This document shows, one piece after another, positions 6,972 through 29,214 of a DNA stretch of 39,021 bases (the stretch's first letter is position 1; each line of letters starts with the position of its first letter). Position numbers and translations under genes: made by a program. Location of the stretch: NCBI GenBank assembly GCA_964404805.1, contig CAYOLJ010000001.1:2172-41192 (forward strand), in the 5' to 3' direction. The notes beneath the pieces are model-generated. The model had not been told where the DNA came from. It searched no databases and saw only the letters and a list, made by a program, of their open reading frames with translations. This stretch comes from an uncultured Candidatus Peribacteria bacterium. Its GTDB lineage: Bacteria > Patescibacteriota > Gracilibacteria > Peribacterales > Peribacteraceae.

Positions 6972-8530
6972 TAACCGATCGGTTGCTGGTTCGAGTCCAG
7001 CCGGGGGAGCCAATTCTTATTTATTATAACACTGCGGTTATCCAGCAGAACCTTGATTACCTTAGCGTATTTCACTTCTGTGATTTTGCGGTCTTTCATA
7101 ACAAACTTCTCGAAGAAAAGCCCTATTAGATGTTCTTTAAGATCTGGCTCTGCTTCTTTGTAGGTGAAGTGCAGGTTGTCGGTCAGAGCCATAAGTCTGG
7201 CGAATACGTCCATATTCTCTTCACGCTCGTCGTCGAGTTCACTAAGACGTTTTTTGATCTGCTTGATGTCCTCAGTAACTTTGCCATGCTGTCTTTTGTA
7301 GGCCTCAGCATCAATCACTCTGTCTGCCCTGTCCTCTTCCAAATTGTCTCTGCGCTTCTCAAGGCGCATTTTACGGTTCAGCAATGCTCTCCTCTGGCCG
7401 TCTACGCAACGATGAGTCTCTTCAAGGATTACTTTCGCTCTGGCGATAATTTTCTCCATGAGCGGTCCTGTGAGCTGTACCTTTTTAAACTGGTCAGCAA
7501 TCATCTTCTCCAACTGCGCTGCTGGAATATTTTGACCCTTGTTGCTATGTTTTTTCTTAGTCAGAGAGCAGTGGTAATACGCTGCACCACTCTTTTCTTC
7601 GTGAAGCTCAGCGGTCATTCTGCCTCCACAAACTCCACACTGAAGGAAACGACGAAAAAAGAACCGTGAATCATGCTTTCGGGAACGGTTTGCGTTCTTG
7701 TTCAAAGATGCCAACACTTCCAGATTCTGATCAAATGTTGGCTTACTAATAAGGGGCTCATACGTTTCATTGCCGTCAGAATCTCTATTGGGATACAATA
7801 TACCTTTATAGGTCATCATTCCATAATAGAACGTATTTCTAAGCATATCTATAAACGATGATTTTGGCATTTTCTTCCCATGCTTAGAACGCAATCCACG
7901 CTCGAACATGATGTTGCTCAACTTCTCCACCGTGTAGTTCCCTGTAGAAAACAGTTTCAGTGCCTCCTTCACAAGTTCACCTTTGACTGGATCTACTCTG
8001 ACAACGTTGTGCTGACTGTCTTCGGTTCCAATGTTCACATTAATGTAACCCAGAGGAGCCCATCCAGGCCATTCTCCACATTCTATCTTTTTCTGCATGG
8101 AGCGGCTCGTCTTGGCACCATAAAGGTTGCTATAAAACTCGTTAACAGTAGACATGATTCCATCCATCATTATGCCTTCGGGTGTCTCCATCTCTGTAAA
8201 AGGTTGATTAACAGCTATTAAGCGACATCCATTCTGCTTTAGAAATTGCTGCACAGTGTGATGGTCGATGTTACTTCTAGCAAACCGATCCGTTTCTGAG
8301 ACAAGGAGAAAGCTTACCTTATGCTCTCCTATGAAATTAAGAGCATCATTAAAGCCAGGCCTGCCTTCCACTGTCCGTCCGCTTTTACCGTCGTCACGAT
8401 ACTCTCCCATAACTTCGATACCATTCGCCTCGGCATATTTTCGACACATAGAAAGCTGGTTCTCCACCGACTTACCTCTAGCCTGTTCCTCATCGCTTAC
8501 GCGCCCGTAGTTAACTGCTGTTCCTTCCAT
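6839..8530 (-). CDS. Large serine recombinase (integrase). The last ~58 codons are antisense to the tRNA 3' exon and the intron core.
   Basis: The N-terminus has the resolvase catalytic domain (NYGRVSDEEQ...LLVSETDRFARS). It is followed by a recombinase domain, a zinc ribbon (CGVCGGRMTAELHEEKSGAAYYHCS) and a coiled-coil. The tail ...NKNWLPRLDSNQQPIGY... is the translated reverse complement of the tRNA. Confidence 0.9.
   Translation of the reverse strand: MEGTAVNYGRVSDEEQARGKSVENQLSMCRKYAEANGIEVMGEYRDDGKSGRTVEGRPGFNDALNFIGEHKVSFLLVSETDRFARSNIDHHTVQQFLKQNGCRLIAVNQPFTEMETPEGIMMDGIMSTVNEFYSNLYGAKTSRSMQKKIECGEWPGWAPLGYINVNIGTEDSQHNVVRVDPVKGELVKEALKLFSTGNYTVEKLSNIMFERGLRSKHGKKMPKSSFIDMLRNTFYYGMMTYKGILYPNRDSDGNETYEPLISKPTFDQNLEVLASLNKNANRSRKHDSRFFFRRFLQCGVCGGRMTAELHEEKSGAAYYHCSLTKKKHSNKGQNIPAAQLEKMIADQFKKVQLTGPLMEKIIARAKVILEETHRCVDGQRRALLNRKMRLEKRRDNLEEDRADRVIDAEAYKRQHGKVTEDIKQIKKRLSELDDEREENMDVFARLMALTDNLHFTYKEAEPDLKEHLIGLFFEKFVMKDRKITEVKYAKVIKVLLDNRSVIINKNWLPRLDSNQQPIGYTLPFCFQKEWTISSPIIYRVRGASSRKCGTTPLRIVSEPSETP
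7002..7018. repeat. 17-nt tRNA-3'-end / junction sequence CGGGGGAGCCAATTCTT (attL candidate). Its internal 9-mer GGGAGCCAA is 7005-7013.
   Basis: An exact copy lies at 32469-32485. The 9-mer is also found at 30850-30858, at the GC-content break. Confidence 0.7.
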
Positions 8531-9344: not shown

Positions 9345-9546
9345 TAATAATTATAAGAGTACTGGGTTGCCTTTGCATTTTATGTGAATTTGCCTGTAAT
9401 GAACAATTAAAACTTTTAAAGAACTTTGTTTGCTGCATCTCTGTACGAACACCACTCACAGTACTTTGATGGTTTCGGCGTACTGGACGCGATTCGAACG
9501 TATGGAAATATTCAACTTAACTAAGAAAATCACATATAGTCTCAAT

Positions 9547-10470
9547 ATGAGCAAACTAGAGAAGCAACACTTCATTCCTGAGTTCTTTCTAAAGAATTTT
9601 GTAGAAGCTGAAAGCAGGGCTCGGAAGATCTATCGTCTATGGTCTCATCGAAAAGGTGTGGAGCCCGTGCTTTGTTCCACGCGTAAGCTTGCAAGAAAGA
9701 AGCATATTTATTCAACTCGTAAGAAAATAGGAGATACATATGAAAAATCTCACGAGCAACTACTCGACAAAATTGAAAGTATTGCTGCGCCAATCATTAC
9801 AAAAATTTTAACCACAAAAGATCTTTTCAAGTTGGATCAAAGAGAGCGAGATGATTTTTCCATTTTTATTGTAATACTAGCCGAACGCAACCCAATAGCG
9901 TTTTCGACTACAGATGCAATGATGAGAAGACTTTTTCTAAAAGAATATGCAGAGTCTATGAAGAAAACATCGGATAGTGATCTTCGAGAGATTTATGAAA
10001 AATCGAAAGCAAAGAATAAAGAATTAGAAAACGTTTCATTTGAAGAGGCTCGACAGGTGATGCTTGAAGGCCCTAAAGAAGAAAATTTAGCGCTCCCATT
10101 TAGCCATGGTATAAGCTCAATGTGGCAGGCGGCAAAAGAATGTTCGAAGTATATGCACATGAGGCAGTGGCAGCTGCTCTCTTCTGAGAAGGTTGGTAAG
10201 CACTTTTGGTTGTCCGATAATCCTGTCATAAAAATTCGGGATATACCGGAAGAAGAAGTGTATGAAGTCATGCAAGGTGGTTGGGGTAGGAAAGATTTAG
10301 AAATTGCCCTGCCACTCAGTCCCACTCTATGTTTTTATGCTGCAGGAAAGGTAGATGAGCAATTTTCAGTTATTAACACTACCTCAGTTGCAGCAATTAA
10401 TTGGTGGACCGTGCAACAAGCTGTCGATGAAGTCTATACCGCCACTAAAGAATTAGATGTTTGGAGTTAA
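9547..10470 (+). CDS. DUF4238-like protein
   Basis: The N-terminus MSKLEKQHFIPEFFLKNF matches the H-(F/Y)-(I/V)-P-x-F-(F/Y)-L-x-x-F start typical of DUF4238. Later motifs are LSDNPV and ALPLSPTLCF. The ORF is open from 9430, but the family-like start is the ATG at 9547. Confidence 0.7.
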   Translation: MSKLEKQHFIPEFFLKNFVEAESRARKIYRLWSHRKGVEPVLCSTRKLARKKHIYSTRKKIGDTYEKSHEQLLDKIESIAAPIITKILTTKDLFKLDQRERDDFSIFIVILAERNPIAFSTTDAMMRRLFLKEYAESMKKTSDSDLREIYEKSKAKNKELENVSFEEARQVMLEGPKEENLALPFSHGISSMWQAAKECSKYMHMRQWQLLSSEKVGKHFWLSDNPVIKIRDIPEEEVYEVMQGGWGRKDLEIALPLSPTLCFYAAGKVDEQFSVINTTSVAAINWWTVQQAVDEVYTATKELDVWS

Positions 10471-10555: not shown

Positions 10556-11389
10556 TCAGGCGGAGAGAGCTTCTGAAGCATCTTCCCGATACTGACACCA
10601 CTCACAATCAACAAAAGACTTCGGCGCTTTCTTCTGCTGAAGACACTTGTGAGCATCGATAATCGCCTTCTCTACCCAGCTTCGATCGCCTTTGTGAGAG
10701 ATGATCTGTTCATCGAAAACGAGTTTGCTACCAAATCCTGCTTGTCCTGTATCTGCATTCACATACACCCAGTAGCCGGTATCTGAGACATTGAATCCAT
10801 TCTTTTCCAATAACCACTGGTAAATTTCCATCTGCCTTTTGTAGGCATCTTTCCATGGAGTACCGTCATTGATATCGATCTCTTTAGTTGTGCTTGTAGA
10901 CTTATAATCCACAACCGGGAGTTTGCCCTTCGGATCAACCCAGATATCATCTACAGCTCCTGTGATCAGCAGGTTCGTTGGTTCATGTAAATACTACACA
11001 CCCTTAAAGTTCTCTCTCCACTCGCCCATTTTTTCGTGCTGGAATGGCACTGCATCTATCTTGTACTTTTTCATGAGAGGATGAGGCTTACTTTTTGCCC
11101 TGCAAATATCGAACTCCTTCTTAAGGAGGGTATCTGTTGCGGAGTTTAGAGTGAATGCTGGGCCAGAGACTTGTCCTACTCCCAAACGACGGTCGAGATA
11201 GAAGCACCGAGGACATTTGAGGAAGTTATCTATCTTCGAACGACTAAGTTTGAAAGGCTCTTTTGATTTGGGGTCAAAGATGTTGCGTGTGCGGGGTACG
11301 ATTGGATAATAGACTATGTTTGAATGGGTGTGTATATTATTAGTAACTCCACTCAACATGCCCCAGAGCTGACCGATTGAGTTCTTCAC
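10556..11389 (-). pseudogene. Cas4/RecB-like PD-(D/E)XK nuclease interrupted by a single in-frame TAG (10994-10996)
   Basis: ORFs 10994..11389 and 10556..10912 are in the same frame. The intervening codons read ...NFKGV*YLHEPTNLLITGAVDDIWVDPKGKLPVVDYKSTS... The N-terminal Cys (FLKCPRCFY), the D...DYK core and the C-terminal CEWCQY cluster fit a Cas4-like Fe-S nuclease. Confidence 0.7.
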
Positions 11390-12113
11390 GTAAATGCCTC
11401 CATTTCGGCGAGTATTTGCTCATGGCAGCAATGAAGTCATCATTATGGTTTCGGACAAGCAGATGCACCATCTCATGGATCAGCACGTACTCAATGCTCT
11501 CGATCGGTTTCTTGGCTAACTCAGTATTCAGCCAAATTCTTTTTGCCTTGGAGTTACAGGTGCCCCATTTTGTCTTCATTGTCCTGATACATACCTCGGC
11601 CACTCTAACATTCATTTTCTTCTCAAATTTCGCGACATACTGCGGGATCAACTGCCTGAGCTGTTGTCTGTACCAAGCATGCAATATTTCTTCTCTCTGG
11701 TCCCTTGAAGTACCTTTGCGAATATAGAGCTCAATAGTGCCATGTTTTAGAACTACTCTCGGAGCAGCTTCCCGCTCTATCACTTTCAGTAAATATCTTT
11801 GTCCAAGGTAGTAATGGCTTTCACGTGTGACATACTCCCTAGAAGTCTCCCTTTTTTGCCTTTGAAGCTTGGCCTGCTGTTTTCGTATCCAGCCCAGCTT
11901 GGAAATACTAAATAGTCGGATGGTTTCTAGATCCATCTGTTGTGGTGCTGAAATTGTTACTCTGCCATGGGGTGGATACACACTCAGATGAACGTTCTTG
12001 ATGTTCTTGTGAATGACATCAAGGCAAATGTCGCCCAGCTCAATTGTGCTTCTCCTAGTATTCATATTGTTGCTTAATGATCTGGAAGATTCTTTCAACT
12101 TCAACTTTATCAT
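11340..12113 (-). CDS. M48/YgjP-like (DUF45) zinc metallopeptidase associated with type I R-M
   Basis: An HEMVHL (HExxH) motif lies near the C-terminus, and the position after hsdR is typical. The probable true start is the ATG at 12065 (MNTRRSTIELG), which overlaps the hsdR stop by 11 nt. Confidence 0.8.
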   Translation of the reverse strand: MIKLKLKESSRSLSNNMNTRRSTIELGDICLDVIHKNIKNVHLSVYPPHGRVTISAPQQMDLETIRLFSISKLGWIRKQQAKLQRQKRETSREYVTRESHYYLGQRYLLKVIEREAAPRVVLKHGTIELYIRKGTSRDQREEILHAWYRQQLRQLIPQYVAKFEKKMNVRVAEVCIRTMKTKWGTCNSKAKRIWLNTELAKKPIESIEYVLIHEMVHLLVRNHNDDFIAAMSKYSPKWRHLREELNRSALGHVEWSY

Positions 12114-15100
12114 TCAGTACTTTAAACAAGGCCTGCTTGATCAGATTCTCGCTAGGGATATTGCCTCGCCAGTCGGCACGCCTGCTAGCGAATACCGCAG
12201 CATCAATGGAAATCGCCAATTCCTCACTCTTCCCAAGATTACGGTACAGCGCCCGTTGCGCGTTTGTTTCTATTCCTCTTGGAAGGTCGTCACGGGTGAG
12301 ATTCGCCACTCGTCTCACCAGCTCAAGGATCTTCTTCAAATACTCTTCATAACTCACGGCGTTTGTTTTCCGCTCTCTCACAATCTCACTCAAGAGCTTG
12401 GACATCTCCTCAAAATACACAGGGTCGATCAGGTGATCCTTGATGATCTTGGTGCGTACGTTGTTTTCAATGGTCTCCGCCACCGCTTCTTTACTGCTTC
12501 GTATCCCCTCCGGTAGTGATTTGATCGCATCTGCGAGTCCGCTATTGATCATGATATCGAGTAGAGACTGGTCGCCGAACGGATCAATGCGCCTGCTGTC
12601 TTCCGCTTGAATGTAGGTATCGATCAGGTGCCGCATGTCGGCCTCATAGGTCTTGAGATCAAGCTTTTCACCGCTTGCCATGCGGATTTCCTCTCTGAGC
12701 TTCAGATACTTGTCCACTTTGCCTTTGATAACCTCCGTCTCATCGGCGTTGTACCCGGCCTCGCTCATCTCATCTGCGATGTTCGCATACGAACGTATCA
12801 GCCCGACCGTGTGCTTGTAGAGCGCTGCGCGTTTCATCTCACTGTCTTTCAAGTCCTGCTTGTTCTCCGGATTGCCACAGAAGTAACGAATGTACGCCAA
12901 ACTATCCTTTGGAGGTTGGACTGGCTCACAAACCAGAGCAATGGCTTCTAGAGCGTTATCCAGTCGTTCTTTGCCCTTCGCCAAGCGATCTTTCAGCACG
13001 ATATCGATGTCCTCTTTCTCGAAATTCTCCGAGTCCAATTCGGACGTGTATGCCGAATACGCACCTTCCAGTTTCTGGAATAAGTCCTTGTAGTCGACGA
13101 TGTAGCCGAAATCTTTGTCCTCACCATCCAAGCGGTTCACGCGACAAATCGCCTGGAACAGGCCGTGATCCTGCATCTTCTTGTCGATGTAAAGATATGT
13201 GCAGGGAGGCGCGTCGAAACCAACCAGAAGCTTATCGACTACGATGAGCAGTTTCATGTTTGCCGGTTCATCAATGAATTGCTTCTTAGCCTTGTCCTCG
13301 TAGGTTTCACACTTGGATTTGCCTGGTTCTGCAGCAACATCCTGAAGGAGATCGGTATAAATCTTATACACATACTCCTTCTCGGTTTCGGTATTCTCAC
13401 CCGTTCCCTCGGTTGTAATATCTTTCGTTACGGGATTGTACGAGGTAATCAGGGCACATTTCCCTTTGAGGGAAGTATTCTGGAATAACTCAAAATAGCG
13501 AGTCGCTTCGTAGATTCTTCCCGCGACCAGAATGGCATTCCCGAACTCAGAATCCAGCCGTCGCTTCGTACTGAAGTCGAGAACGATGTCCTGCACTATC
13601 TTCTCCAGACGAGATTTTGAGCTGAGCACCTGCTGCATCGTGCCCCACTTCTTCTTCAGTTCATGTTTCTGGAAGTCATTGAGTCCTTTGGTCTTCGCAT
13701 CAAACCATGCATCCACCTTCTCCTCTGACGAGAGCTTCGTATCAATGTCCCGCGCCTCATAGATCAAATCCAAGACGACCCCATCCTCCACCGCCTCATT
13801 GAATTTATAGGTGTGGATGTATCTGCCGAATACCTCTTGGCTTGTCTGCTTGTCTTTCTTGAGCAGAGGCGTCCCGGTGAAGCCGATGAATACGGCGTTT
13901 TTCAGGATCGCCTTCATCACCTTGTGCATCTTGCCGGACTCCGAGCGGTGACACTCATCCACGAAGACGAACAACTCGCCAACGGTATTGCTGGGGGCAC
14001 TCTGCAACTCCTTAATGTACGCGTCGAAATTACTCTTGTCGCGTGTCCCGAATTTGTGGATGAGTGAGCAAAGAAGGCGAGGCAGTGGATTGTTGAGCTG
14101 CTCCATTAGGTCCTTGCCGCTTGTCGTGCGTTTCATTTCCCTTTCACCTGCCCCATGAAAAACTCGCTCGATCTGCTTATCCAGCTCAATCCGATCCGTC
14201 AGAATAACCACCCGCGCATTGGGATTATTTTCCAGTATCCACTTGGCCAGCCACACCATGATGAGGCTCTTGCCGCTGCCCTGCGTGTGCCAAATGATGC
14301 CGCCTTCCCGTCGCTTCACAAACTCCTGCGCCGCCTTGATACCGAAATACTGATGAGTTCTCGGCAGCTTCTTGATCCCACCGTCAAACAGGACAAAATC
14401 ATACAGCACTTCCAGCAGTCGCTTCTTGTCGCACATCTTGAGCAGATATTTATCCAGCTGAAGCATGCTGTCGTCCTCCTCGTCCTCCTTCCACTTCAGA
14501 TAGTACTTTTCGGGAGTGAGAATTGTTCCGTACTTGAGTCCTTCGGTGTCGTTACCGGCAAAGATAAATTGGACAGTAGAGAAGAATGACTCGATAAATT
14601 CTTTCTGTTGGTTGACTATGCTCTGACGGATGCCGTCGCCGATAGAGACGGTGCTCCGTTTCAGCTCTATCACGCCAAGTGCGATACCGTTCACATACAA
14701 CACAATGTCGGGGCGCTTTTCACGATTCCCCTGAATCGTCACTTCCTCCGCGATTGCGAAGTTGTTCTTCGTTGGATTCTTCCAATCAATCAGTTCAATA
14801 GTTTCATTGTTATCAGCCACGTTTTCTTTCGCCTTGATCCCATAGCGAAGCAATTTGTAGACATTCTGATTGTTGGTGTAGAGGCTTTCACCGTAGTTGT
14901 TGGCTGCGGCACGCAGTTTGTCCAAAGCACGCGCAATCAACGTATCGCTATACCCACGACCGGAGAGATATTTCCTAACCTCTCCCTCTTCAATGTTGCT
15001 GTTCTCCAGCCGATCTTCCCAGTTACCCAAATACTCATACTTCAACCGATCCCGAAACAGCGCCACAATTCGATTCTGGGTTCTGCGTTCTGGTTGGCCT

Positions 15101-15123
15101 GAATCTTGATTGGCTGGATTCAT
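12055..15123 (-). CDS. hsdR: Type I restriction enzyme R subunit
   Basis: 1022 aa. The helicase motifs are HTQGSGKS (Walker A) and FVDECHRS (DEAH box). ATGA overlap with the hsdS stop. Confidence 0.95.
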   Translation of the reverse strand: MNPANQDSGQPERRTQNRIVALFRDRLKYEYLGNWEDRLENSNIEEGEVRKYLSGRGYSDTLIARALDKLRAAANNYGESLYTNNQNVYKLLRYGIKAKENVADNNETIELIDWKNPTKNNFAIAEEVTIQGNREKRPDIVLYVNGIALGVIELKRSTVSIGDGIRQSIVNQQKEFIESFFSTVQFIFAGNDTEGLKYGTILTPEKYYLKWKEDEEDDSMLQLDKYLLKMCDKKRLLEVLYDFVLFDGGIKKLPRTHQYFGIKAAQEFVKRREGGIIWHTQGSGKSLIMVWLAKWILENNPNARVVILTDRIELDKQIERVFHGAGEREMKRTTSGKDLMEQLNNPLPRLLCSLIHKFGTRDKSNFDAYIKELQSAPSNTVGELFVFVDECHRSESGKMHKVMKAILKNAVFIGFTGTPLLKKDKQTSQEVFGRYIHTYKFNEAVEDGVVLDLIYEARDIDTKLSSEEKVDAWFDAKTKGLNDFQKHELKKKWGTMQQVLSSKSRLEKIVQDIVLDFSTKRRLDSEFGNAILVAGRIYEATRYFELFQNTSLKGKCALITSYNPVTKDITTEGTGENTETEKEYVYKIYTDLLQDVAAEPGKSKCETYEDKAKKQFIDEPANMKLLIVVDKLLVGFDAPPCTYLYIDKKMQDHGLFQAICRVNRLDGEDKDFGYIVDYKDLFQKLEGAYSAYTSELDSENFEKEDIDIVLKDRLAKGKERLDNALEAIALVCEPVQPPKDSLAYIRYFCGNPENKQDLKDSEMKRAALYKHTVGLIRSYANIADEMSEAGYNADETEVIKGKVDKYLKLREEIRMASGEKLDLKTYEADMRHLIDTYIQAEDSRRIDPFGDQSLLDIMINSGLADAIKSLPEGIRSSKEAVAETIENNVRTKIIKDHLIDPVYFEEMSKLLSEIVRERKTNAVSYEEYLKKILELVRRVANLTRDDLPRGIETNAQRALYRNLGKSEELAISIDAAVFASRRADWRGNIPSENLIKQALFKVLNDKVEVERIFQIIKQQYEY

Positions 15124-16418
15124 ATTAGTCGTATCTTACCTGTTAATAGCACCTGCATCATACCCTGCTTTAGCATGTCGTATTTATCACGCTTTTTCTC
15201 TAAGCTCTCAATCTCTACGTCCATATTGGAGAGAATCGTGGCGATGGCAATTTGTTCAAGTATTGAAGAGGGAAGCAAAAGCTTGAAGATCTCTACATCC
15301 CTAATATTGAGTCCAGGCTGTGCAGCCCCCTTGAGATAAAGAGAAACTTGGCACTTTCCTATGTCGCTTAGAAGCGCATACTTGCAATAGGAACTAGATG
15401 CCTTATCTGGATCGATCGCGATCCTTGCTGTTGTTTGAGTTAGATTTGCACCTTCAAGCCATTCTGGAATGACTTCAACATAGCCGCAGTATCCAACAAT
15501 GGTCATAATCAAATCTCCTGCCTTTACCCTAGCATTACGATACCGGTCTTCAATTATTGGACTTACTCGGAATAATTCATAAGGCTTAGCCCAACCCTTA
15601 ACCTCAGAGTAATCTTGACCTCTAATCATATATCGCCCATTAGGATCAAACTTTCCTGGTTGAACAATCCCGTAGCGGATACTCCTAGATGGATCTACGA
15701 GGCTTGCAAGCGGAGTAATACTCCAATCATCTGGGATATCGCCTAATTCAGTCCGTTTAAATCCCTTTATTTCATCAAACCCCGGCAACCTCTTTTTACC
15801 AGTGAGGAGCTGCTGCATCGTGCCTTGTTTGATGGCTTTCTTTTTGGCGATTAGTTTCTCCAAGTGTTCTATCAGCGCATCGGTGTCGGAGAGGACGGCG
15901 GCGATGGCGGATTGCTGGGCTTTAGTCAAAGGTAATGGCAATAAGATTGATTTAATAATTTCGCCACTAAGGTTCGGCTGACCTCCTTGCGTATAAGTCT
16001 GAATAAGCCAATTTTTCTTATATATAAAATATTGGTATAAATAAATTGGGTCTTCATTTTTTGGTATCAAAGCCAGAATTGCCTGGTTAATTGCCCCTTC
16101 GATTCTTGTGAAGCCAGCCACACCTGCAGTAGCACCGTAAAGTGCAAGTAAAAATGTATTCGATTTTACTATTTTTGCAGATGAGTTTTCGAGACCCTTT
16201 TTTGTAATTCGACCGTTAACTGCATTAATTATTCCCATGTTTAAATCGCTTGATGTAATCCACGGGATATTACCGCCATAGTAAGAAGGGTTAGAAGTTG
16301 AAGGCGTGCCACCAGAGTATGCAACACAAATATCCCCCAATTTTTTTACATCCCAATCCTGTGGAATTACTCCTAGATCGGTTTGTTTGTAGCCGGTTTT
16401 GATCGGTGCAATTCCCAT
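15120..16418 (-). CDS. hsdS: Type I R-M specificity subunit
   Basis: 432 aa with two target-recognition halves. These are separated by and end in the conserved helices (LPLPLTKAQQSAIAAVLSDTDALIEHLEKLIAKKKAIKQGTMQQLLTGK; ...LEKKRDKYDMLKQGMMQVLLTGKIRL). Confidence 0.9.
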   Translation of the reverse strand: MGIAPIKTGYKQTDLGVIPQDWDVKKLGDICVAYSGGTPSTSNPSYYGGNIPWITSSDLNMGIINAVNGRITKKGLENSSAKIVKSNTFLLALYGATAGVAGFTRIEGAINQAILALIPKNEDPIYLYQYFIYKKNWLIQTYTQGGQPNLSGEIIKSILLPLPLTKAQQSAIAAVLSDTDALIEHLEKLIAKKKAIKQGTMQQLLTGKKRLPGFDEIKGFKRTELGDIPDDWSITPLASLVDPSRSIRYGIVQPGKFDPNGRYMIRGQDYSEVKGWAKPYELFRVSPIIEDRYRNARVKAGDLIMTIVGYCGYVEVIPEWLEGANLTQTTARIAIDPDKASSSYCKYALLSDIGKCQVSLYLKGAAQPGLNIRDVEIFKLLLPSSILEQIAIATILSNMDVEIESLEKKRDKYDMLKQGMMQVLLTGKIRLI

Positions 16419-16972
16419 TAGCCTTGACGTGATAAAAATATTTCAACCAGCGGGCGCAGTGTTTTATATCCATTTTCAATGAGTAACTGATCTCTCTCAT
16501 CTTGTGGGTTCTTTCCGCCATGAAAGAGGTTATTCCGAACTGAATGCCAAAACTCCACCATATTTTCCCAGTCACCTAAACCGTGAATTACACCTTTTGC
16601 TGTCTGTTGCTCTCCTTGCACCTGATCGCCAAGATGATCACTTGAGCAATTCCACCATTTTATCTCCTCCGCTTCGTCACCACTACAACTGACATTTACA
16701 AGAGAAGTGCTGTCCAATTCCTCGGTAATCTTTTCCCAAGCCTCACGAAGATTCGGTGCATCATTAACCTTTTTTAGATATGCTTTCTTGAAAGTATTAT
16801 CTTGTTTCAGATGTTGAATTGCACGACGATCAGTTTCTGCATCTATATATTTAATCTTTTTCAAGAATGCAATAAATGCCAGGTACTCAAAAACATACTT
16901 AGAAAAATAATCCTCGTCTGAAGCTTTGGTATGCCAGTTTTGAATTAGCTGAAGGAAATTCATAGTATTCAC
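16418..16972 (-). CDS. HEPN-like protein (R-x4-H motif) embedded between hsdM and hsdS
   Basis: The 184-aa all-helical-looking ORF carries FWHSVRNNLFHGGKN near its C-terminus (RNNLFH encoded at 16520-16537). It overlaps the hsdS start by 1 nt (TAATG). It either overlaps the hsdM stop or lies 5 nt or less from it. Confidence 0.55.
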   Translation of the reverse strand: MNTMNFLQLIQNWHTKASDEDYFSKYVFEYLAFIAFLKKIKYIDAETDRRAIQHLKQDNTFKKAYLKKVNDAPNLREAWEKITEELDSTSLVNVSCSGDEAEEIKWWNCSSDHLGDQVQGEQQTAKGVIHGLGDWENMVEFWHSVRNNLFHGGKNPQDERDQLLIENGYKTLRPLVEIFLSRQG

Positions 16973-19344
16973 CAGTGAAAGCCCATCTTGGCTAAATGTT
17001 CATCCACTTTTTTACTGAGCGTCTCTGTTTCAGTGACGAGTGTTGGTAGGGGCGTAGCGTACCGCTCCGCGAGTTCTTTGATCCGTTGCGTGAGCCGCTG
17101 ACTAATGCGATCCATTTCACCCTTGATCGCCAGCTCCAGAGCCGCCATCCATTTGTCATCCACCACCAGAGTCTTGATCTCGGCTTCGGTGAGTGTCGCA
17201 TATTTGGCAATTACCTGCGCTTCAAGTGCCTTCTCGGCTTCTTTGATCTTCTTCTTCGCCTCGGATTCTTCTCCGGAAAGATCGAACCACTTTTGCATGA
17301 CTCTCCATTCCTCGGCATCTTCCGGCTTCCCTTTAGTCTCCTTCATCCGGGATGACACACTCGCTTTGTTCACCTTTTCAAAGCCTGCGAAGTATCCTTC
17401 CTCTCCGCTGTTTTCTTCCTCCAGTTCTTCTATCTCCCGGCTGGCAGTATCCAGTTTGGTTTGTAGTTCTTCTATGGACTGTTTCTCATTGGCGAAGTAG
17501 CGATTGATCACCAGAGCCTTCGGCACAAGGTCGCAGTCCATTTCCCCCTTTTTCCCTTCTACTGGCATCAGCTCTGCCTTCCAGCCGTCAACGGCAATCA
17601 GGTACATGTCGTCCTGCATTGTCTCCGCCCAGTACTCCATCAAATGTTGGTAAATGTCGTACCTGTCGATCAGGTTGGTCTTGCTGAAAGTGGCCAAAAT
17701 ATCCTCGGATACTTCATGGATGATTCCCTTTGGCTTCGCACCAATGGCCAGCTTCTTGAGAAGAACAGTGTTCCTTTCTTTCCATACGGCAAACGTCGCC
17801 TCCATGATCTTAGCGTATGCCGTAAATTCCGGATGCGAGAAGATGGTGTGCTTGATCTCTTCTTGTGCGACTAGAAGAGTGTTGTACCCCTTTCTCTTGC
17901 TCTCTCCGAAGAGTGAAGTCTTGAGTGTCGGGTAGACGCTCCAGTAGCGTTCGAGGTCTTCAACGTCCTGAGTTGGGATATCGCCCTTCAGGTGTGCCTC
18001 AATATCCTGAATGTCCTCAGCTTCCTGACTGTCTATGTAGCGAGGGATATTCAGGTTGAATTCATTCTTTTCAATTTCTACCACACTCACCATGCGTGCA
18101 TACTTGGGGACTTCTAGTTGCTTGTTGAATACGTCCACAATCTTGTGGAGGTCTTGAGCACGCAGTCGGTTCTTGTTGCCGTCCTTCACGAAGCACTTAC
18201 TTGCGTCAATCATGAAGATGCCTTTGCGGTTCTCGGCATTCTCTTTGTCGAGGACGACAATGCATGCAGGGATACTTGTACCGTAAAAGAGGTTCGCTGG
18301 TAGCCCAATAATGCCCTTGATGTAGCCACGCCGGATAATGTTGGTACGGATCTCTCCCTCGGCATTGCCACGGAAGAGCACGCCATGCGGGAGGATGCAG
18401 GCACCTTTTCCTGTGGTTTTAAGAGAGCGGATAATATGCAGAAGAAAGGCGTAGTCACCATTCTTCGTTGGTGGTACGCCAAATCCTTGAAAGCGTTCAA
18501 ATGGATCATGCTGAGGATCAACACCATTGCTCCATGACTTAAATGAAAATGGAGGATTGGCTACCACAAAATCAAAAGTCTTGAGTGAGTCACCGTCTTT
18601 GAAGAGCGGAGTAGAGAGCGTGTTTTCACGCTTGATCACCGCTGTCGCGTTATCGTGGAGAATCATATTCATGCGGGCGAGTCCTGCGGTCGCATTGTCC
18701 ATTTCCTGACCGTAGAGCTGTACCTTCTTGTCGGTTTCATCTCCTACCTTCAAGAGCAATGAGCCAGAGCCACAGGTGGGGTCGTAGACAGTTGGGGTTT
18801 CGTTCTTAGTACTTGCGATACCGATTACTCTTGCGATGATCCTGCTGACCTCTGCCGGAGTGTAGAACTGCCCCTTGCTCTTACCACTCTCCGTCGCGAA
18901 ATTCTTCATCAAATACTCATAGGCATCTCCGAGAATGTCATCTCCTTCGGCACGATTCTGACTGAAATCCAGTGCTGGGTTTTCAAAAATCGCTATGAGA
19001 TTGGAAAGCTTCTTGACCATGTCTGCGCCGCTCCCCAGCTTCTCCGCATTATTGAAGTCCGGCATTTCCGACAGCTTGTTGGCCTCTGCGATCGGTGCGA
19101 TGATTTTCTTGTTGATGTCATCACCTATCGTCGCCTTACCCTTGAGTGCCACCATGTCCTTGAAGCTTGAGCCTTCTGGAATGGTGATGGGAGCGAATGG
19201 CACACCCGCATACTTATCGGATATATATTTTAAGAAGAGTAACACCAGCACATAGTCTTTGTACTGGGATGCGTCCATTCCGCCGCGCAGTTCGTCGCAG
19301 CTTTTCCAGATGGAGCTATAGAGTTGGGATTTTTTGATGGGCAT
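16969..19344 (-). CDS. hsdM: Type I R-M N6-adenine DNA methyltransferase subunit (long form with a coiled-coil C-terminal region)
   Basis: 791 aa. Motif I is YDPTCGSGSLLL and motif IV is VVANPPFSFKSW. Confidence 0.95.
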   Translation of the reverse strand: MPIKKSQLYSSIWKSCDELRGGMDASQYKDYVLVLLFLKYISDKYAGVPFAPITIPEGSSFKDMVALKGKATIGDDINKKIIAPIAEANKLSEMPDFNNAEKLGSGADMVKKLSNLIAIFENPALDFSQNRAEGDDILGDAYEYLMKNFATESGKSKGQFYTPAEVSRIIARVIGIASTKNETPTVYDPTCGSGSLLLKVGDETDKKVQLYGQEMDNATAGLARMNMILHDNATAVIKRENTLSTPLFKDGDSLKTFDFVVANPPFSFKSWSNGVDPQHDPFERFQGFGVPPTKNGDYAFLLHIIRSLKTTGKGACILPHGVLFRGNAEGEIRTNIIRRGYIKGIIGLPANLFYGTSIPACIVVLDKENAENRKGIFMIDASKCFVKDGNKNRLRAQDLHKIVDVFNKQLEVPKYARMVSVVEIEKNEFNLNIPRYIDSQEAEDIQDIEAHLKGDIPTQDVEDLERYWSVYPTLKTSLFGESKRKGYNTLLVAQEEIKHTIFSHPEFTAYAKIMEATFAVWKERNTVLLKKLAIGAKPKGIIHEVSEDILATFSKTNLIDRYDIYQHLMEYWAETMQDDMYLIAVDGWKAELMPVEGKKGEMDCDLVPKALVINRYFANEKQSIEELQTKLDTASREIEELEEENSGEEGYFAGFEKVNKASVSSRMKETKGKPEDAEEWRVMQKWFDLSGEESEAKKKIKEAEKALEAQVIAKYATLTEAEIKTLVVDDKWMAALELAIKGEMDRISQRLTQRIKELAERYATPLPTLVTETETLSKKVDEHLAKMGFHW

Positions 19345-19403: not shown

Positions 19404-20126
19404 TTATGAGATAACTATGCCTTTCTTATCAAGAAAGACACTTATCATTGCTTTATTCGCATTAACCCTCTGCTCAAATTCAGCCCTTTTTCCTGTCTCG
19501 CTACACATTGAAGGTATACCTGTACGACTGACCACATCCTCCAAGCTGGAATCACTTTGATCCATCACCAGACCGTTCCTCGCTTCTATTCCATCAATAG
19601 TATCCCCTTTGTGAATGGGCATATGCTTTCCTGCTGCGCTTAGGATTCGAGAATACAAAACGCTGTGCTGTTCCCCGAACGCAAACGCATACACCTTATT
19701 GCTCCACCAGTCCTCGTGCATCGACAGGAAGAAATCTATTTTCTCGTTCAGCAGGCTCATAAAGAACAACGACTGTTCTGGCTCCAGTTGCAGCGAGCGT
19801 GTCCTGTTTAAATCCTTCCCTGCGTGATTCCTGCGGTTGTTATGCACATAACCCCACGGGTTCAAACATGGGTAGAGCAGTATCCGCACCCCTTCCGATA
19901 CAATACCTTCTTCCAAGAACTGCACGGCAGCCTCTATGGGTGCTGGCTCGTCACCGTGCACTCCTGCTACGACCACCACAGTCTTTTCGTATATCTCTGG
20001 GGATATTACCCTAGGTAGTACAAACTGCTTACAGGGACCAACAGAGCCAAGCTCTTGGTATTTATAGTTCTGTTTCTGACAAGACTCTCTTATCCGTGCC
20101 ACTAATTGGCTATAACTCCTCCTCAT
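19404..20126 (-). CDS. M14-family zinc carboxypeptidase / succinylglutamate desuccinylase-aspartoacylase-like protein
   Basis: Motifs are VAGVHGDEPAP (HxxE), NRRNHAGKDLNR, SMHED and CSETG. The gene is co-directional with hsdM and lies 59 nt upstream of it. Confidence 0.75.
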   Translation of the reverse strand: MRRSYSQLVARIRESCQKQNYKYQELGSVGPCKQFVLPRVISPEIYEKTVVVVAGVHGDEPAPIEAAVQFLEEGIVSEGVRILLYPCLNPWGYVHNNRRNHAGKDLNRTRSLQLEPEQSLFFMSLLNEKIDFFLSMHEDWWSNKVYAFAFGEQHSVLYSRILSAAGKHMPIHKGDTIDGIEARNGLVMDQSDSSLEDVVSRTGIPSMCSETGKRAEFEQRVNANKAMISVFLDKKGIVIS

Positions 20127-20214: not shown

Positions 20215-20955
20215 TCATAGGACTTTGAGGGAAGGATGGTAAAACTCAACTCCTCCATAACTCTGTATCCCTTTATAAAAAGGCGAGTTCGCTATATAGC
20301 GAACGGACATTGCTGAAAAACGGCGAATATCGCTGTAGTTCTTGTTAAGGTGGTCGGCTATGCGCTGATAGGACATTCTTTTGCCATGTCTGGGCTTTCT
20401 GCGGAGTTTGTAAATCTCACGGACAATCGCAAGTTCGTTCTCTACGGGAACATAACCACTGCCGACTGCCTTATAGCCGAAGGCAACATTGCCACCGCTA
20501 TACCCCCTCCCGCTCTCGGCCTTCTTCTTTCGCCCTGCACTGAGGCGGAGTGAAATCATAGCCTTCTCATATTCCGCAATCGCCCCTTTCATCTGACGAA
20601 AAAGAATGCGCGAGGGGTCTTGCGAATCCAAGTCCGGCTCGTCAATGGATATTGGTTGGACGTTGAGCTTCTGAAACTCAAGTAGGAGCTGTTCCTGAAT
20701 CAATAGTGACCTTGATAACCTGTCTAATCGAAGAAATACCACAGCATCTACCTCATGCACCTTAATGTACTCAAATAACTTTCCTAGAGCTGGACGTTTA
20801 GCAAGCGAGCCACTTACACCTTCTTCTCTGAAGATCTGTATGAGAGTGTGCCCTTGATCCTTTGTATATGCTTTGATTTTGTCCGCTTGGATCTGTAAGC
20901 CATAGCCGACTGCCTGTCCTGATGTGCTGATTCTGGAATATCCTACTAACTTCAT
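20215..20955 (-). CDS. Short serine recombinase: resolvase catalytic domain plus the start of a recombinase domain, without zinc ribbon or coiled-coil
   Basis: MKLVGYSRISTSGQ...VVFLRLDRLSRS is followed by GGNVAFGYKAV...ELAIVREIYKL...MSYQRIADHLN...IANSPFYKG. At 246 aa it ends where large serine recombinases continue. Confidence 0.85.
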   Translation of the reverse strand: MKLVGYSRISTSGQAVGYGLQIQADKIKAYTKDQGHTLIQIFREEGVSGSLAKRPALGKLFEYIKVHEVDAVVFLRLDRLSRSLLIQEQLLLEFQKLNVQPISIDEPDLDSQDPSRILFRQMKGAIAEYEKAMISLRLSAGRKKKAESGRGYSGGNVAFGYKAVGSGYVPVENELAIVREIYKLRRKPRHGKRMSYQRIADHLNKNYSDIRRFSAMSVRYIANSPFYKGIQSYGGVEFYHPSLKVL

Positions 20956-21797: not shown

Positions 21798-22877
21798 TCA
21801 AAGTTCTTCGAGTGTGTGCATGCCCAATTTCTCAATTGTATGTCCAAATGGCTTATCTGTTTCATGCTTTTTTGGGTCTATTGAATAGTCAAGCTTTCGA
21901 TTCAATGTGTATCCTGAGCTGTCTATTTTCAAAGAAGCAACATTTTTAATAATCAGATGTTCATAGCACAAGCAAAGCTCTTTTGCTGACAAGCTTAGTT
22001 CCAACTTTGTATCAAAATCATCGAATACTTTATCCAAACTTCCCGATTTCTTGAGCCAAGCCAAATCCCATCCTGTTTCCCATTCCTTACGATCATTTGC
22101 TTTCATTGATTGCATTGCCTTCCAAATTGCTGCCATTACAATTCCTGGGCTGGGTGCATGCTCTAGAAGTTCGCGTACGTGTTTAGCCTGCTGCTCATAT
22201 TCGAGAACGCTTTTCCCCATACCCGAATAAAAACTGAGTATTACTAATGCAACGTCGTTGGCACCCATTTTATTAAACGGCGTCTCTGAAAGAAGTAATT
22301 TTCGCAATCTTGCAATCAGGACAGCACTGTTCGGAAGATGCGGAAAGATAGAGTTCAGAAGAATATTTTGTTCAGAAGAGAGTTTGTTTCCGCCTGCATC
22401 AACATCATCTTCTTGTTCTTTCTTCTTGTTAGTCTCTTCTTGTTCTTTCTTCTTGTTATGTTGGGCAGCAGTGATTAGAGGGTCTGAGCCCTCATGGTCA
22501 GAACTATCATCTTCTATGAGAGATGAGTCTGATTCTATGTGAGTCGATGCCGAATCATCAGTAATCATAGGGGTCTTATCACTGGTGATCGGAGGATTCT
22601 TCGGAAATATTTTTCTGTTGTTTCCTGTGCTCTGTAAAACGTCTACCTCTATGTAGCCATAGTCTTTGAGTTGCCTTAGCCAACGTGTAATAGTCGGCTT
22701 TGAACAACCTATCTCTTTTGCCAAATAATTGTTATAAGCCCAGCAGTAACCCTCTTTTCTAGCCAAGGAGAAGATGCGTACAGCGAGACAACGCGCACCT
22801 AGCTGTAAGCGTGTGTCCTCATTAACGAGAAACACCCACTTCATTGTTACCGATAGTTTTGAAGTCTTCTTTTTCAT
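21798..22877 (-). CDS. wHTH replication-initiator / replisome-organizer-like protein
   Basis: The N-terminus LAVRIFSLARKEGYCWAYNNYLAKEIGCSKPTITRWLRQLKDYGYIEV resembles a plasmid/phage initiator-type winged helix. An acidic, low-complexity linker contains an in-frame 24-nt repeat (22408-22431 and 22435-22458) encoding NKKKEQE twice. Confidence 0.65.
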   Translation of the reverse strand: MKKKTSKLSVTMKWVFLVNEDTRLQLGARCLAVRIFSLARKEGYCWAYNNYLAKEIGCSKPTITRWLRQLKDYGYIEVDVLQSTGNNRKIFPKNPPITSDKTPMITDDSASTHIESDSSLIEDDSSDHEGSDPLITAAQHNKKKEQEETNKKKEQEDDVDAGGNKLSSEQNILLNSIFPHLPNSAVLIARLRKLLLSETPFNKMGANDVALVILSFYSGMGKSVLEYEQQAKHVRELLEHAPSPGIVMAAIWKAMQSMKANDRKEWETGWDLAWLKKSGSLDKVFDDFDTKLELSLSAKELCLCYEHLIIKNVASLKIDSSGYTLNRKLDYSIDPKKHETDKPFGHTIEKLGMHTLEEL

Positions 22878-28823: not shown

Positions 28824-28899
28824 AAGGAATATCCGATATTGCCTCCATCCCTAAAATTCAAATAGGGCAATCTCTTAGCTTTTTGCTATTATCGTATGT

Positions 28900-29214
28900 A
28901 TGAAGATGGATAAAGATACATTTGACCGCCTTATTGCTTATTTTTGTGTTGTTTTTCTAGGGCTCACTGCAGGAATTTACATGTACTTTCTCTTAAATTT
29001 TTTAGGTCTTAGTCCATGGCTAATTACTGGCATTGGCACAATTACAGGAATTAATGTTTCTTTTTGGGCGAATAAACTATACTCAAAGACTCGGAACCAA
29101 TCACCTTACCTTCTACATCATATCTTCTGCGGGTCAGCATTGCTCTTACTCATAACTGTGCTTGGTGACATCAAAAATCTATGCAAACGTGTTATCCCTA
29201 AATGTGTACTATGA
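28900..29214 (+). CDS. Small three-TM membrane protein
   Basis: The 104-aa ORF has three hydrophobic segments. It is co-directional with the giant gene and overlaps the next ORF by 13 nt. Confidence 0.5.
   Translation: MKMDKDTFDRLIAYFCVVFLGLTAGIYMYFLLNFLGLSPWLITGIGTITGINVSFWANKLYSKTRNQSPYLLHHIFCGSALLLLITVLGDIKNLCKRVIPKCVL

What the first reader, a model, noticed from the sequence alone, without database searches (positions are those of the whole stretch)
16418..16972. Stand-alone HEPN-like gene translationally coupled between hsdM and hsdS of a type I R-M operon
**Observation.** The 184-aa ORF carries the HEPN RNase signature R-x4-H in the usual phi-R-N-x-x-x-H-G form (VRNNLFHGG, 16520-16537) near its C-terminus. 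Its stop overlaps the hsdS start (TAATG). Its start overlaps or nearly abuts the hsdM stop.

**Precedent.** This is the position occupied by the anticodon nuclease PrrC in the E. coli prr locus. There a HEPN nuclease is kept latent by the type I enzyme and is unleashed when phage inhibit restriction.

**Difference.** PrrC and RloC carry a large ABC-ATPase regulatory domain. This protein is only a minimal HEPN with a ~130-aa helical N-terminal part. It would therefore have to be regulated differently, for example by direct docking to HsdM/HsdS. Comparative genomics has noted HEPN domains embedded in R-M operons, but such minimal versions are, to my knowledge, uncharacterised.
Basis: partly seen in the sequence, partly recalled or inferred. 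Interest (0 to 1): 0.65.

Follow-up and report, generated by a model that had tools for sequence, protein, structure and literature searches.

The report
Small HEPN-like gene inside restriction operon
A real, widely conserved 181-184-residue gene with an invariant HEPN-type R-x4-H ribonuclease motif sits tightly coupled between the methylase and specificity genes of a type I restriction operon; it is an uncharacterised member of a known kind of accessory defence gene, not a new kind of system.

Summary
The ORF, the RNNLFH motif at 16520-16537 and the TAATG overlap with hsdS are all there. About 500 homologue clusters exist in bacteria and archaea. R146 and H151 are invariant down to about 20% identity.

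HEPN assignment is probable, not proven.
- For: the motif sits at the end of the penultimate helix of confident AlphaFold models.
- For: distant relatives pass Pfam's MauJ threshold and weakly hit HEPN_Apea.
- For: UniRef calls a 60%-identical homologue "Apea-like HEPN domain-containing protein".
- Against: the window protein hits no curated model.
- Against: three Foldseek searches found nothing significant.

The PrrC analogy is only partly right.
- prrC lies between hsdS and hsdR, not between hsdM and hsdS.
- Only about a third of close homologues sit in the hsdM-X-hsdS slot. The rest lie in other, often defence-type, neighbourhoods, or are fused to a Zn-ribbon or a C-terminal extension.
- Related operons carry unrelated cargo in the same slot, for example a PD-(D/E)XK nuclease.

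Best reading: an ApeA/MauJ-like HEPN RNase effector carried as accessory cargo of the R-M operon, probably self-regulated. Latency imposed by HsdMS is possible but untested.

It is a new member of a known kind. Interest is moderate.

The parts
16418..16972 (-). Gene X: stand-alone HEPN-like protein. 184 aa from GTG 16972; more likely 181 aa from ATG 16963.
   Evidence: ORF. 498 homologues. AF2 model with pLDDT 90.4 and pTM 0.88. The 181-aa NCBI call is P0389. No Pfam, NCBIfam or PADLOC hit above threshold.
16520..16537 (-). R146-N-N-L-F-H151: HEPN-type R-x4-H motif, with Asn after the Arg.
   Evidence: R146 and H151 are invariant in alignments A1, A2, A3 and A4. The motif lies at the C-terminal end of helix 135-150, and H151 starts the loop to the last helix 159-182. 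PMC3710099 gives this as the HEPN position.
16961..16972 (-). hsdM stop / X start junction (GTGA overlap, or TGA-ATACT-ATG).
   Evidence: Sequence. The junction is short (-35 to +22 nt) in 25 of 29 hsdM-X-hsdS loci (automatic start choice, so rough).
16416..16420 (-). X stop / hsdS start overlap (TAATG).
   Evidence: Sequence. The X-to-hsdS junction is -32 to +7 nt in 24 of 29 loci.
16969..19344 (-). hsdM, long form (791 aa, with a C-terminal coiled-coil extension).
   Evidence: N6_Mtase 1.2e-102, HsdM_N, TIGR00497 2.7e-84, PADLOC MTase_I PDLC03027 full length.
15120..16418 (-). hsdS (432 aa, two target-recognition domains).
   Evidence: Methylase_S 6e-33 in two stretches; PADLOC Specificity_I 8e-105.
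12055..15123 (-). hsdR (1022 aa).
   Evidence: HSDR_N, SWI2_SNF2, T1R_D3-like; TIGR00348 2.5e-159.
11340..12113 (-). YgjP/SprT-like zinc metallopeptidase; conserved last gene of this R-M cassette type.
   Evidence: YgjP-like 4.5e-59. The same gene follows hsdR in L009, L090, L091, L174 and L175.

Best explanation
Gene X encodes a small, single-domain member of the HEPN superfamily. Its closest relatives are the ApeA-like/MauJ group. It is predicted to be a metal-independent RNase. It rides as accessory 'cargo' in the hsdM-hsdS slot of a type I R-M operon on a low-GC mobile island.

**Shown**
- The gene is real and strongly conserved.
- The R-x4-H dyad is invariant.
- X is co-transcribed, and very likely co-translated, with HsdM and HsdS.
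- The family is mobile across bacteria and archaea.
- It occurs both inside type I R-M operons of two different HsdM types and elsewhere.

**Inferred**
- X dimerises like other HEPN proteins to form a composite active site.
- It stays inactive in healthy cells.
- On infection it cleaves RNA (tRNA anticodon loops are the precedent in ApeA and PrrC), giving a second, abortive layer of defence behind restriction.
- Close relatives live without any R-M neighbour, and the slot takes unrelated cargo. I therefore think its on/off control is mainly intrinsic. The conserved roughly 90-residue insert with invariant Trp/Asn/Cys positions could act as sensor or oligomerisation surface. The operon would then mainly supply expression and co-mobility.
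For: **Gene and motif**
- Conservation and invariance of R146/H151.
- The motif lies at the end of the penultimate helix in two confident AF2 models, pLDDT 90 and 94. This matches the HEPN description in PMC3710099.

**Link to known HEPN families**
- The close and distant subfamilies are homologous over their full length (hhalign probability 100%, E 6e-44).
- Distant members P0276 and P0289 pass the Pfam MauJ gathering score (37.7 and 28.2 bits against 28). They also hit HEPN_Apea over nearly the whole model at E 0.009 and 0.004.
- There are weak PADLOC hits over the motif region to CARF_HEPN, Csx1/Csm6, Cas13a and DzbB models. The first three are HEPN-bearing by name; whether DzbB holds a HEPN domain was not checked.
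- UniRef names: 'Apea-like HEPN domain-containing protein' for P0023 (60% identical) and 'HEPN domain-containing protein' for P0330.

**Operon context**
- The cassette hsdM-X-hsdS-hsdR(-ygjP) recurs.

**Evidence for autonomy**
- 29 of 80 close loci have neither hsdM nor hsdS next to X.
- Other neighbours include ABC-3C, Hachiman, TIR, NACHT-HEAT, a UvrD-like helicase and a 1610-aa P-loop protein.
- R-M and non-R-M members are interleaved in the tree.
- The slot holds other cargo in related operons.

**Precedents**
- ApeA is a single-protein, ligand-activated tRNA anticodon HEPN nuclease (bioRxiv 10.64898/2026.01.26.701840).
- TgvAB is an independent system embedded in a type I cluster. It is 17 times commoner outside such clusters (PMC11411939).
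Against: - The window protein itself has no significant match to any HEPN model.
- Consensus sequences of the family did not improve this.
- Profile searches of PDB sequences found nothing.
- Foldseek found no significant structural neighbour. Csm6 appeared only at E 3-8 with TM about 0.2-0.3.
- No RNase activity, toxicity or defence phenotype is known for any member.
- X lacks the N-terminal and Mid domains that form ApeA's ligand pocket, so an ApeA-style sensor is not evident.
- Some data fit a real functional tie to the R-M enzyme. Only the solo clade is found in R-M operons, X subclades track the HsdM type, and a related operon keeps a distant X-like gene just upstream of hsdM.
Confidence: 0.55

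Rival explanations
1. PrrC-like guard. X is held latent as an extra subunit of the HsdM2S or HsdR2M2S complex. It is unleashed as an RNase when a phage anti-restriction protein (Ocr, ArdA or Stp-like) attacks the enzyme.
For: - Tight coupling between hsdM and hsdS would give stoichiometric co-synthesis with the methylase core.
- The arrangement recurs with two different HsdM families, about 800 aa and about 520 aa, and X subclades follow the HsdM type.
- Only the clade without extra domains is found in R-M operons. Clades outside R-M often carry a Zn-ribbon or a C-terminal extension that could replace a partner.
- L062 keeps a distant X-like gene next to a related operon.
- There is a PrrC precedent (PMC3025547 and PMC3014915; PMC12707154).
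Against: - About half or more of close solo-clade homologues have no hsdM or hsdS next to them. A toxin that needs Hsd for latency should not survive there.
- The same slot carries unrelated genes in related operons.
- X has no ATPase or other known coupling domain.
- No interaction data exist.
Confidence: 0.25
2. Addiction or stabilisation toxin. X is a HEPN toxin whose role is to stabilise the R-M cassette or mobile island, with a partner acting as antitoxin, rather than to defend against phage.
For: - Small HEPN proteins are classic toxins, for example HepT with MntA (PMC3710099).
- The island is mobile, with serine recombinases and low GC.
- A small 76-78-aa gene precedes X in L003, L013, L104 and L130.
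Against: - There is no MNT or other recurrent antitoxin-like neighbour. Clustering of neighbours found only Hsd genes and ABC-3C as recurrent.
- In the window, X is flanked directly by hsdM and hsdS.
Confidence: 0.08
3. Not a nuclease. X would be a helical accessory or regulatory protein of unknown fold, for example an assembly or specificity modulator of the methylase. The conserved Arg/His would then serve binding rather than catalysis, or the HEPN resemblance would be convergent.
For: - No significant fold match in three Foldseek searches despite pLDDT above 90.
- No direct HEPN model hit.
- Pfam MauJ, the only family passed by relatives, is itself of unknown function.
Against: - Only R and H are invariant across the whole family, with a typical hydrophobic-R-N-x-x-x-H-G context and the HEPN helix position.
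- Several independent weak hits all fall on HEPN models and on the motif region.
- Frequent occurrence away from any R-M system argues against an R-M-specific structural role.
Confidence: 0.12

Closest known systems
ApeA (HEPN_Apea, PF18739) and Pfam MauJ (PF17419)
   Same: - Nearest sequence families. Distant relatives of X pass the MauJ threshold and weakly match HEPN_Apea over the whole model.
- UniRef labels a 60%-identical homologue 'Apea-like HEPN'.
- The ApeA/BMEI1217 family was noted as embedded in R-M operons in epsilonproteobacteria (PMC3710099).
- ApeA is a single-gene defence that cleaves tRNA anticodon loops.
   Different: - X is 181-184 aa and covers only the HEPN-like domain. 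It lacks ApeA's N-terminal and Mid domains (about 330 aa), which form the ligand pocket and oligomer contacts.
- X itself gives no HEPN_Apea or PADLOC ApeA hit.
- X has its own conserved roughly 90-residue insert between the first and second helix pairs.
PrrC / RloC anticodon nucleases
   Same: - A HEPN-type R-x4-H nuclease gene embedded in a type I R-M operon.
- A precedent for a second-line RNase triggered when restriction is inhibited.
   Different: - X has no ABC-ATPase domain and belongs to a different HEPN family.
- prrC lies between hsdS and hsdR (hsdM-hsdS-prrC-hsdR), whereas X lies between hsdM and hsdS.
- Many X homologues are not in R-M operons.
HepT-type minimal HEPN toxins (HepT-MntA, type VII TA)
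   Same: Small stand-alone HEPN proteins with R-x4-H at the end of helix 3.
   Different: - No adjacent MNT nucleotidyltransferase antitoxin.
- No Pfam HEPN or DUF86 hit.
- X is larger because of the insert.
Other cargo embedded in type I R-M operons (TgvAB in V. cholerae VPI-2; PD-(D/E)XK, DUF262 and hypothetical genes in related operons)
   Same: - An independent accessory gene inserted, with overlapping stop and start codons, between hsd genes.
- The cargo also occurs outside R-M clusters.
   Different: The predicted chemistry differs: an RNase rather than a DNA nuclease. No function has been shown for X.

Membership tests
HEPN superfamily | Conserved R-x4-6-H motif with a polar residue after the Arg | tested here: met
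   R146-N-N-L-F-H151. R and H are invariant in 74-92 diverse sequences, and N148 is at least 90% conserved. The criterion is from PMC3710099.
HEPN superfamily | [quoted passage not shown] | tested here: inconclusive
   AF2 secondary structure fits: helices 3-16, 22-41, an insert, then 135-150 (motif at its end) and 159-182. The same layout appears in the P0276 model.
HEPN superfamily | Significant structural similarity to solved HEPN domains | tested here: not met
   Foldseek against PDB for both models and against BFVD gave no hit with E<0.1. Csm6 chains appeared only at E 3-8 with TM 0.2-0.3. Foldseek is weak on small divergent helical domains, so this does not exclude HEPN.
HEPN superfamily | Significant profile match to a recognised HEPN family | tested here: inconclusive
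   X itself has none. Relatives P0276 and P0289 hit MauJ above the gathering score and HEPN_Apea at E 0.004-0.009. Weak hits to CARF_HEPN, Csx1 and Cas13a models were also seen. I could not verify with the tools that MauJ belongs to the HEPN clan. HHpred was not available.
HEPN superfamily | Metal-independent RNase activity dependent on the R and H residues | not testable with these tools
   Needs biochemistry.
ApeA defence system | About 550-600-aa protein with N-terminal and Mid domains plus a C-terminal HEPN_ApeA domain, forming a ligand pocket | tested here: not met
   X is 181-184 aa and a single domain. There is no PADLOC ApeA hit. The architecture is described.
PrrC/RloC | N-terminal ABC-type NTPase fused to the HEPN nuclease | tested here: not met
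   No ATPase domain and no Pfam, NCBIfam or PADLOC hit. The length is 184 aa.
PrrC/RloC | Physical masking by the type I enzyme and activation by an anti-restriction factor | not testable with these tools
   Context only. The gene order differs from the prr locus, and many homologues lack R-M neighbours.
HepT-MntA type VII toxin-antitoxin | Adjacent MNT nucleotidyltransferase antitoxin gene | tested here: not met
   The neighbours are hsdM and hsdS. No recurrent MNT-like neighbour was found in 170 loci.
Type I restriction-modification operon (host cassette) | hsdM, hsdS and hsdR genes with their signature domains in one operon | tested here: met
   The genes overlap or abut on the minus strand from 12055 to 19344.

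The most novel reading that the evidence does not exclude
The domain-less 'solo' clade of this HEPN family would be a true fourth subunit of type I R-M enzymes. It would be made in step with HsdM and HsdS, docked on the methylase core through its conserved Trp-rich insert, and released as an active RNase dimer when an Ocr/ArdA-type DNA mimic or other inhibitor distorts the complex. That would be a guard mechanism like PrrC but with no NTPase switch. It would be widespread in uncultivated bacteria (CPR) and archaea (DPANN). Relatives outside R-M operons would use a fused Zn-ribbon, a C-terminal extension or other partners for the same purpose.
Probability: 0.2. Interest if true: 0.7.

Novelty: new member of a known kind. 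Interest (0 to 1): 0.4.

Why it matters
If X is an active RNase, it would define a compact (about 180 aa) and very widespread HEPN effector family. Its members are concentrated in uncultivated lineages such as CPR bacteria, DPANN and other archaea, where defence biology is almost unexplored.

The family offers a natural comparison within one lineage: solo proteins inside R-M operons, solo proteins elsewhere, and Zn-ribbon or C-terminally extended fusions. This could show how a bare HEPN nuclease is kept silent and then triggered.

The finding also adds to the picture of the hsdM-hsdS and hsdS-hsdR junctions as insertion slots for second-line defence genes.

It does not overturn any current view. 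HEPN genes in R-M operons have been catalogued since 2013.

Tried and rejected
**Direct family and sequence searches**
- Pfam, NCBIfam and PADLOC scans of X gave only noise: AdoMet_MTase 0.017 and JukA 0.0045.
- Family consensus sequences scanned against Pfam gave no gain. They were K/E-rich; MauJ scored 1.2 and HEPN_Apea 2.5.
- PDB sequence searches with X, A1, A2 and A3 gave only spurious DnaK or antitoxin matches.

**Structure searches**
- Foldseek against PDB with the X model, against BFVD with the X model, and against PDB with the P0276 model gave nothing significant.

**Other collections**
- tblastn of X against plasmids and phages, and of a Zn-ribbon relative against plasmids, found no match.
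- P0276 against plasmids hit only 'hypothetical protein' genes.
- The scan of viral contigs found no relative.

**Search for a partner gene**
- Clustering of neighbours in about 170 loci found only HsdM, HsdS, HsdR and ABC-3C as recurrent. The other clusters were antisense shadow ORFs.

**Literature and provenance**
- The supplement of the 2013 HEPN paper was searched for an ApeA/BMEI1217 alignment to run hhalign against. It is not held.
- An exact look-up of the 181-aa form was not on record. The 184-aa form led only to a 2.3-kb contig, so the source organism was not identified.

**Ideas considered and rejected**
- The idea that the ORF is a chance frame or a shadow of hsdM/hsdS, because of the 498 homologues.
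- Membership of PrrC/RloC, ApeA proper or HepT-MntA, because the defining domains or partners are absent.
Full report
**1. What is in the sequence**

Five genes abut or overlap on the minus strand:
- hsdM, 16969-19344, 791 aa
- gene X, 16418-16972
- hsdS, 15120-16418
- hsdR, 12055-15123
- a YgjP/SprT-like metallopeptidase, 11340-12113

The X reading frame opens with a GTG that overlaps the hsdM stop as GTGA. An ATG follows three codons later, at 16963, 5 nt after the stop and behind a GGTGA that could serve as a ribosome-binding site. Homologue N-termini align with this Met. An NCBI gene call of the identical protein is 181 aa and starts MNFLQL. I therefore take 16963 as the likely start.

The X stop and the hsdS start overlap as TAATG.

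The operon lies in a low-GC stretch, 38-49% against 53-58% in the flanks. That stretch also carries two serine recombinases, a DUF4238 gene, a split Cas4-like nuclease gene and a TPR/PIN protein of the TPR-GreAB-C-PIN type. It looks like an integrated mobile element rich in defence genes.

**2. Is it more than chance?**

Yes. A search of the large protein collection gave 498 homologues. The best are 54-67% identical over 96-98% of the length, nearly all are 177-205 aa, and the sources that name them call them 'hypothetical'. A profile search of the 50%-identity representatives gave 458 hits, 139 of them below 1e-10.

In a 74-sequence alignment reaching about 20% identity, the only invariant columns are R146 and H151. 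W13, F23, N148, L149, F150, K154, R160, D161 and L172 are at least 90% conserved. The same holds in the distant-subfamily alignments. The close and distant subfamilies are homologous over their full length (hhalign probability 100%, E 6e-44).

**3. Is it HEPN?**

Evidence for:
- **(a) Motif.** It has the canonical form: hydrophobic residue, R, N, x, x, x, H, G. A polar residue follows the Arg, as the 2013 HEPN survey describes (PMC3710099).
- **(b) Position.** Two confident AlphaFold models were made, one for X (pLDDT 90.4, pTM 0.88) and one for the distant relative P0276 (pLDDT 93.8). Both put the motif at the C-terminal end of the penultimate long helix. The His opens the loop to the last helix. 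[quoted passage not shown] Two N-terminal helices (3-16, 22-41) would be helices 1 and 2. Residues 42-134 (three helices, a beta-hairpin and a short helix) would be the insert between helices 2 and 3 that is common in HEPN domains.
- **(c) Pfam link.** Relatives P0276 and P0289 pass Pfam's gathering score for MauJ (PF17419). On the same region they match HEPN_Apea (PF18739) over nearly the whole model at E 0.009 and 0.004. Six of 74 family members hit MauJ, and a few hit HEPN_Apea or HEPN_RiboL-PSP weakly.
- **(d) PADLOC.** Members give weak hits over the motif region to CARF_HEPN, Csx1/Csm6, Cas13a and DzbB models. I did not check whether DzbB contains a HEPN domain.
- **(e) Source names.** UniRef names P0023 (60% identical to X) 'Apea-like HEPN domain-containing protein' and P0330 'HEPN domain-containing protein'. 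These are a source's labels, not tests made here.

Evidence against:
- X itself matches no Pfam, NCBIfam or PADLOC model.
- Consensus sequences did not help.
- PDB sequence searches were empty.
- All three Foldseek searches returned nothing significant. Csm6 chains appeared only at E 3-8.
- I had no access to model coordinates, so the packing of the four putative core helices is inferred, not checked.

I put HEPN membership at roughly 80-85%.

**4. Where else the gene occurs**

Its distribution spans these groups:
- bacteria: CPR/Patescibacteria, Bacteroidota, Omnitrophota, Proteobacteria, Acidobacteria
- archaea: DPANN, Bathyarchaeia, Thermoplasmata, Methanobacteriota, Thermococcus

Nothing was found in the plasmid, phage or viral-contig collections for X itself.

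The cassette hsdM-X-hsdS-hsdR, often followed by ygjP, recurs in many contigs. It occurs with two clearly different HsdM types, about 800 aa and about 520 aa.

Among 80 close metagenomic loci:

| Context of X | Loci |
|---|---|
| hsdM upstream and hsdS downstream | 20 |
| One of the two | 7 |
| Neither, with both flanks readable | 29 |
| One flank negative, the other too short to read | 22 |
| Neither flank readable | 2 |

A few of the 'neither' loci still have hsd genes within a few kb. Junctions in the M-X-S loci are mostly short or overlapping.

Outside R-M operons the neighbours vary, and several are defence-type genes. Some are housekeeping genes, for example Obg. The neighbours seen were:
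- ABC-3C genes (CTD10-MC6-DUF2326)
- Hachiman (HamA plus helicase)
- a TIR protein
- a NACHT-HEAT STAND NTPase
- a UvrD-like helicase
- a 1610-aa P-loop protein

No partner other than the Hsd genes and ABC-3C recurs.

The family has three architectures:
- solo, about 180 aa
- an N-terminal CxxC...CxxC Zn-ribbon fusion, about 250 aa, mostly in Proteobacteria and Acidobacteria
- a C-terminal extension of about 100 aa, in CPR

In a neighbour-joining tree, R-M-embedded genes are nearly confined to the solo clade; one distant member, L045, is the exception. There they are interleaved with non-R-M members, and subclades follow the HsdM type.

**5. The slot**

Related operons (HsdM 55-64% identical) show several arrangements:
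- hsdM directly coupled to hsdS, in Sinorhizobium, Pseudomonas and L062
- another gene in the same slot. In an Acaryochloris plasmid a PD-(D/E)XK nuclease gene overlaps both neighbours by 4 nt.
- cargo between hsdS and hsdR instead: a hypothetical gene in P. juntendi, and two DUF262 genes in E. coli

L062 lacks a gene between M and S. It has a distant X-like gene (RRIRNNLFHGGK) 230 nt upstream of hsdM.

So X is accessory, not a core part of the enzyme, and the hsd junctions act as general cargo slots. A studied parallel is TgvAB, an independent type IV system embedded in a V. cholerae type I cluster. It is 17 times commoner outside such clusters (PMC11411939).

**6. How it most likely works**

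Shown:
- a conserved gene
- an invariant R/H dyad
- co-expression with the methylase core
- mobility
- a frequent but not obligatory R-M context

Inferred:
- a HEPN RNase that dimerises to form its active site
- silence in healthy cells
- RNA cleavage on infection, as a second abortive layer behind restriction

The precedents are ApeA and PrrC. ApeA is a single protein that cleaves tRNA anticodon loops when it binds deoxydinucleotides (bioRxiv 10.64898/2026.01.26.701840). PrrC is masked by EcoprrI and triggered by T4 Stp.

Close homologues persist without any R-M neighbour, and the slot is generic. I therefore favour intrinsic control, with the operon as carrier (0.55 for the overall statement).

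Its support is the tight coupling, the restriction of R-M embedding to the domain-less clade, the tracking of HsdM type, and L062.

Minor rivals are an addiction toxin (0.08) and a non-catalytic or non-HEPN helical accessory protein (0.12).

**7. Comparison with known systems**

- **ApeA-like/MauJ HEPN group.** This is the nearest family, but X lacks ApeA's N-terminal and Mid domains. It is not an ApeA system.
- **PrrC/RloC.** X is not a member. It has no ABC ATPase, belongs to a different HEPN family, and sits in a different operon position (the prr order is hsdM-hsdS-prrC-hsdR).
- **HepT-MntA.** X is not such a module, because there is no MNT gene.

The general phenomenon was catalogued in 2013. 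That survey listed HEPN genes embedded in R-M operons, including ApeA/BMEI1217, AbiU2, Abi2/AbiD and AbiJ 'solos'.

What is new here is a large uncharacterised subfamily without a curated model, its preferred hsdM-hsdS slot, and its three architectures.

**8. Verdict**

- Novelty: a new member of a known kind.
- Interest: 0.4.

A specialist would not be surprised. The family is nevertheless a clean, compact candidate for asking how a bare HEPN nuclease is controlled.

Noticed in passing
window 6000-31000: A low-GC island (38-49% against 53-58% in the flanks). It holds two serine recombinases (6839-8530 and 20215-20955, both minus), a DUF4238 gene (9430-10470 +), an M14/AstE-like peptidase (19404-20126 -) and an HTH_36 protein (21798-22877 -). 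It looks like an integrated mobile element carrying several defence-type genes.
   Followed up: partly
window 25140-29963 (+): A 1227-aa TPR-repeat protein with a PIN domain of the 'PIN-TPR-GreABC' type (PF20698, 1.4e-20). Two small co-directional ORFs follow (28900-29214, 29202-29963). This may be a TPR-GreAB-C-PIN conflict system. The small ORFs were not annotated.
   Followed up: no
window 10556-11389 (-): A Cas4-like PD-(D/E)XK nuclease appears split over two ORFs. 10994-11389 matches the N-terminal part of PDDEXK_1 weakly. 10556-10912 matches the C-terminal part, plus Cas_Cas4. This is a possible frameshift or pseudogene just downstream of the R-M cassette.
   Followed up: no
L022, L024-L037, L170, L172 (X homologues): A clade of X homologues carries an N-terminal module of about 70 residues with CxxC...CxxC, resembling a Zn-ribbon (consensus M.C..C...M.KVDRR.E.AELD.DATEGQ.ADY.AAE.SGD...W..G..EY.C..C). 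It occurs mostly in Proteobacteria and Acidobacteria and is never next to hsd genes. A CPR clade (L038-L041, L046) instead has a C-terminal extension of about 100 residues.
   Followed up: partly
L174 (NZ_CP064924.1, Acaryochloris marina plasmid) 9394-10434: In an R-M operon whose HsdM is 63.5% identical to the window's, the hsdM-hsdS slot is filled by a 346-aa 'PDDEXK nuclease domain-containing protein' that overlaps both neighbours by 4 nt. Other relatives carry cargo between hsdS and hsdR: a hypothetical gene in L175, and two DUF262 genes plus IS30 in L176.
   Followed up: partly
L062 1921-2442: An R-M operon 60% (HsdM) and 56% (HsdR) identical to the window's has hsdM fused directly to hsdS. 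It carries a distant X-like gene (…RRIRNNLFHGGKQPYTDRDRQLVE…) 230 nt upstream of hsdM on the same strand.
   Followed up: partly
L119 and L133, downstream of hsdS: Operons that hold X between hsdM and hsdS also appear to carry ABC-3C-like genes (relatives of the CTD10, MC6 and DUF2326 genes of L003) about 1.3-2.3 kb downstream of X. These are compound R-M operons with two different cargo modules.
   Followed up: no
L093 and L125, 1163-5998: A protein of 1610-1611 aa, with only a weak P-loop (Pox_A32/AAA_14) match, ends 3 nt before X. A conserved 158-159-aa ORF overlaps the end of X. A protein of about 1670 aa also lies next to X in L015, L031 and L034. This may be a second recurrent partnership of the family.
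   Followed up: partly
L001 9747-12611: In the Omnitrophota operon hsdM-X-hsdS, two more genes lie between hsdS and hsdR: a 318-aa protein with a weak HEPN_AbiU2 match and a 605-aa AIPR (abortive infection phage resistance) protein. One operon thus holds two different HEPN-type cargo genes.
   Followed up: no
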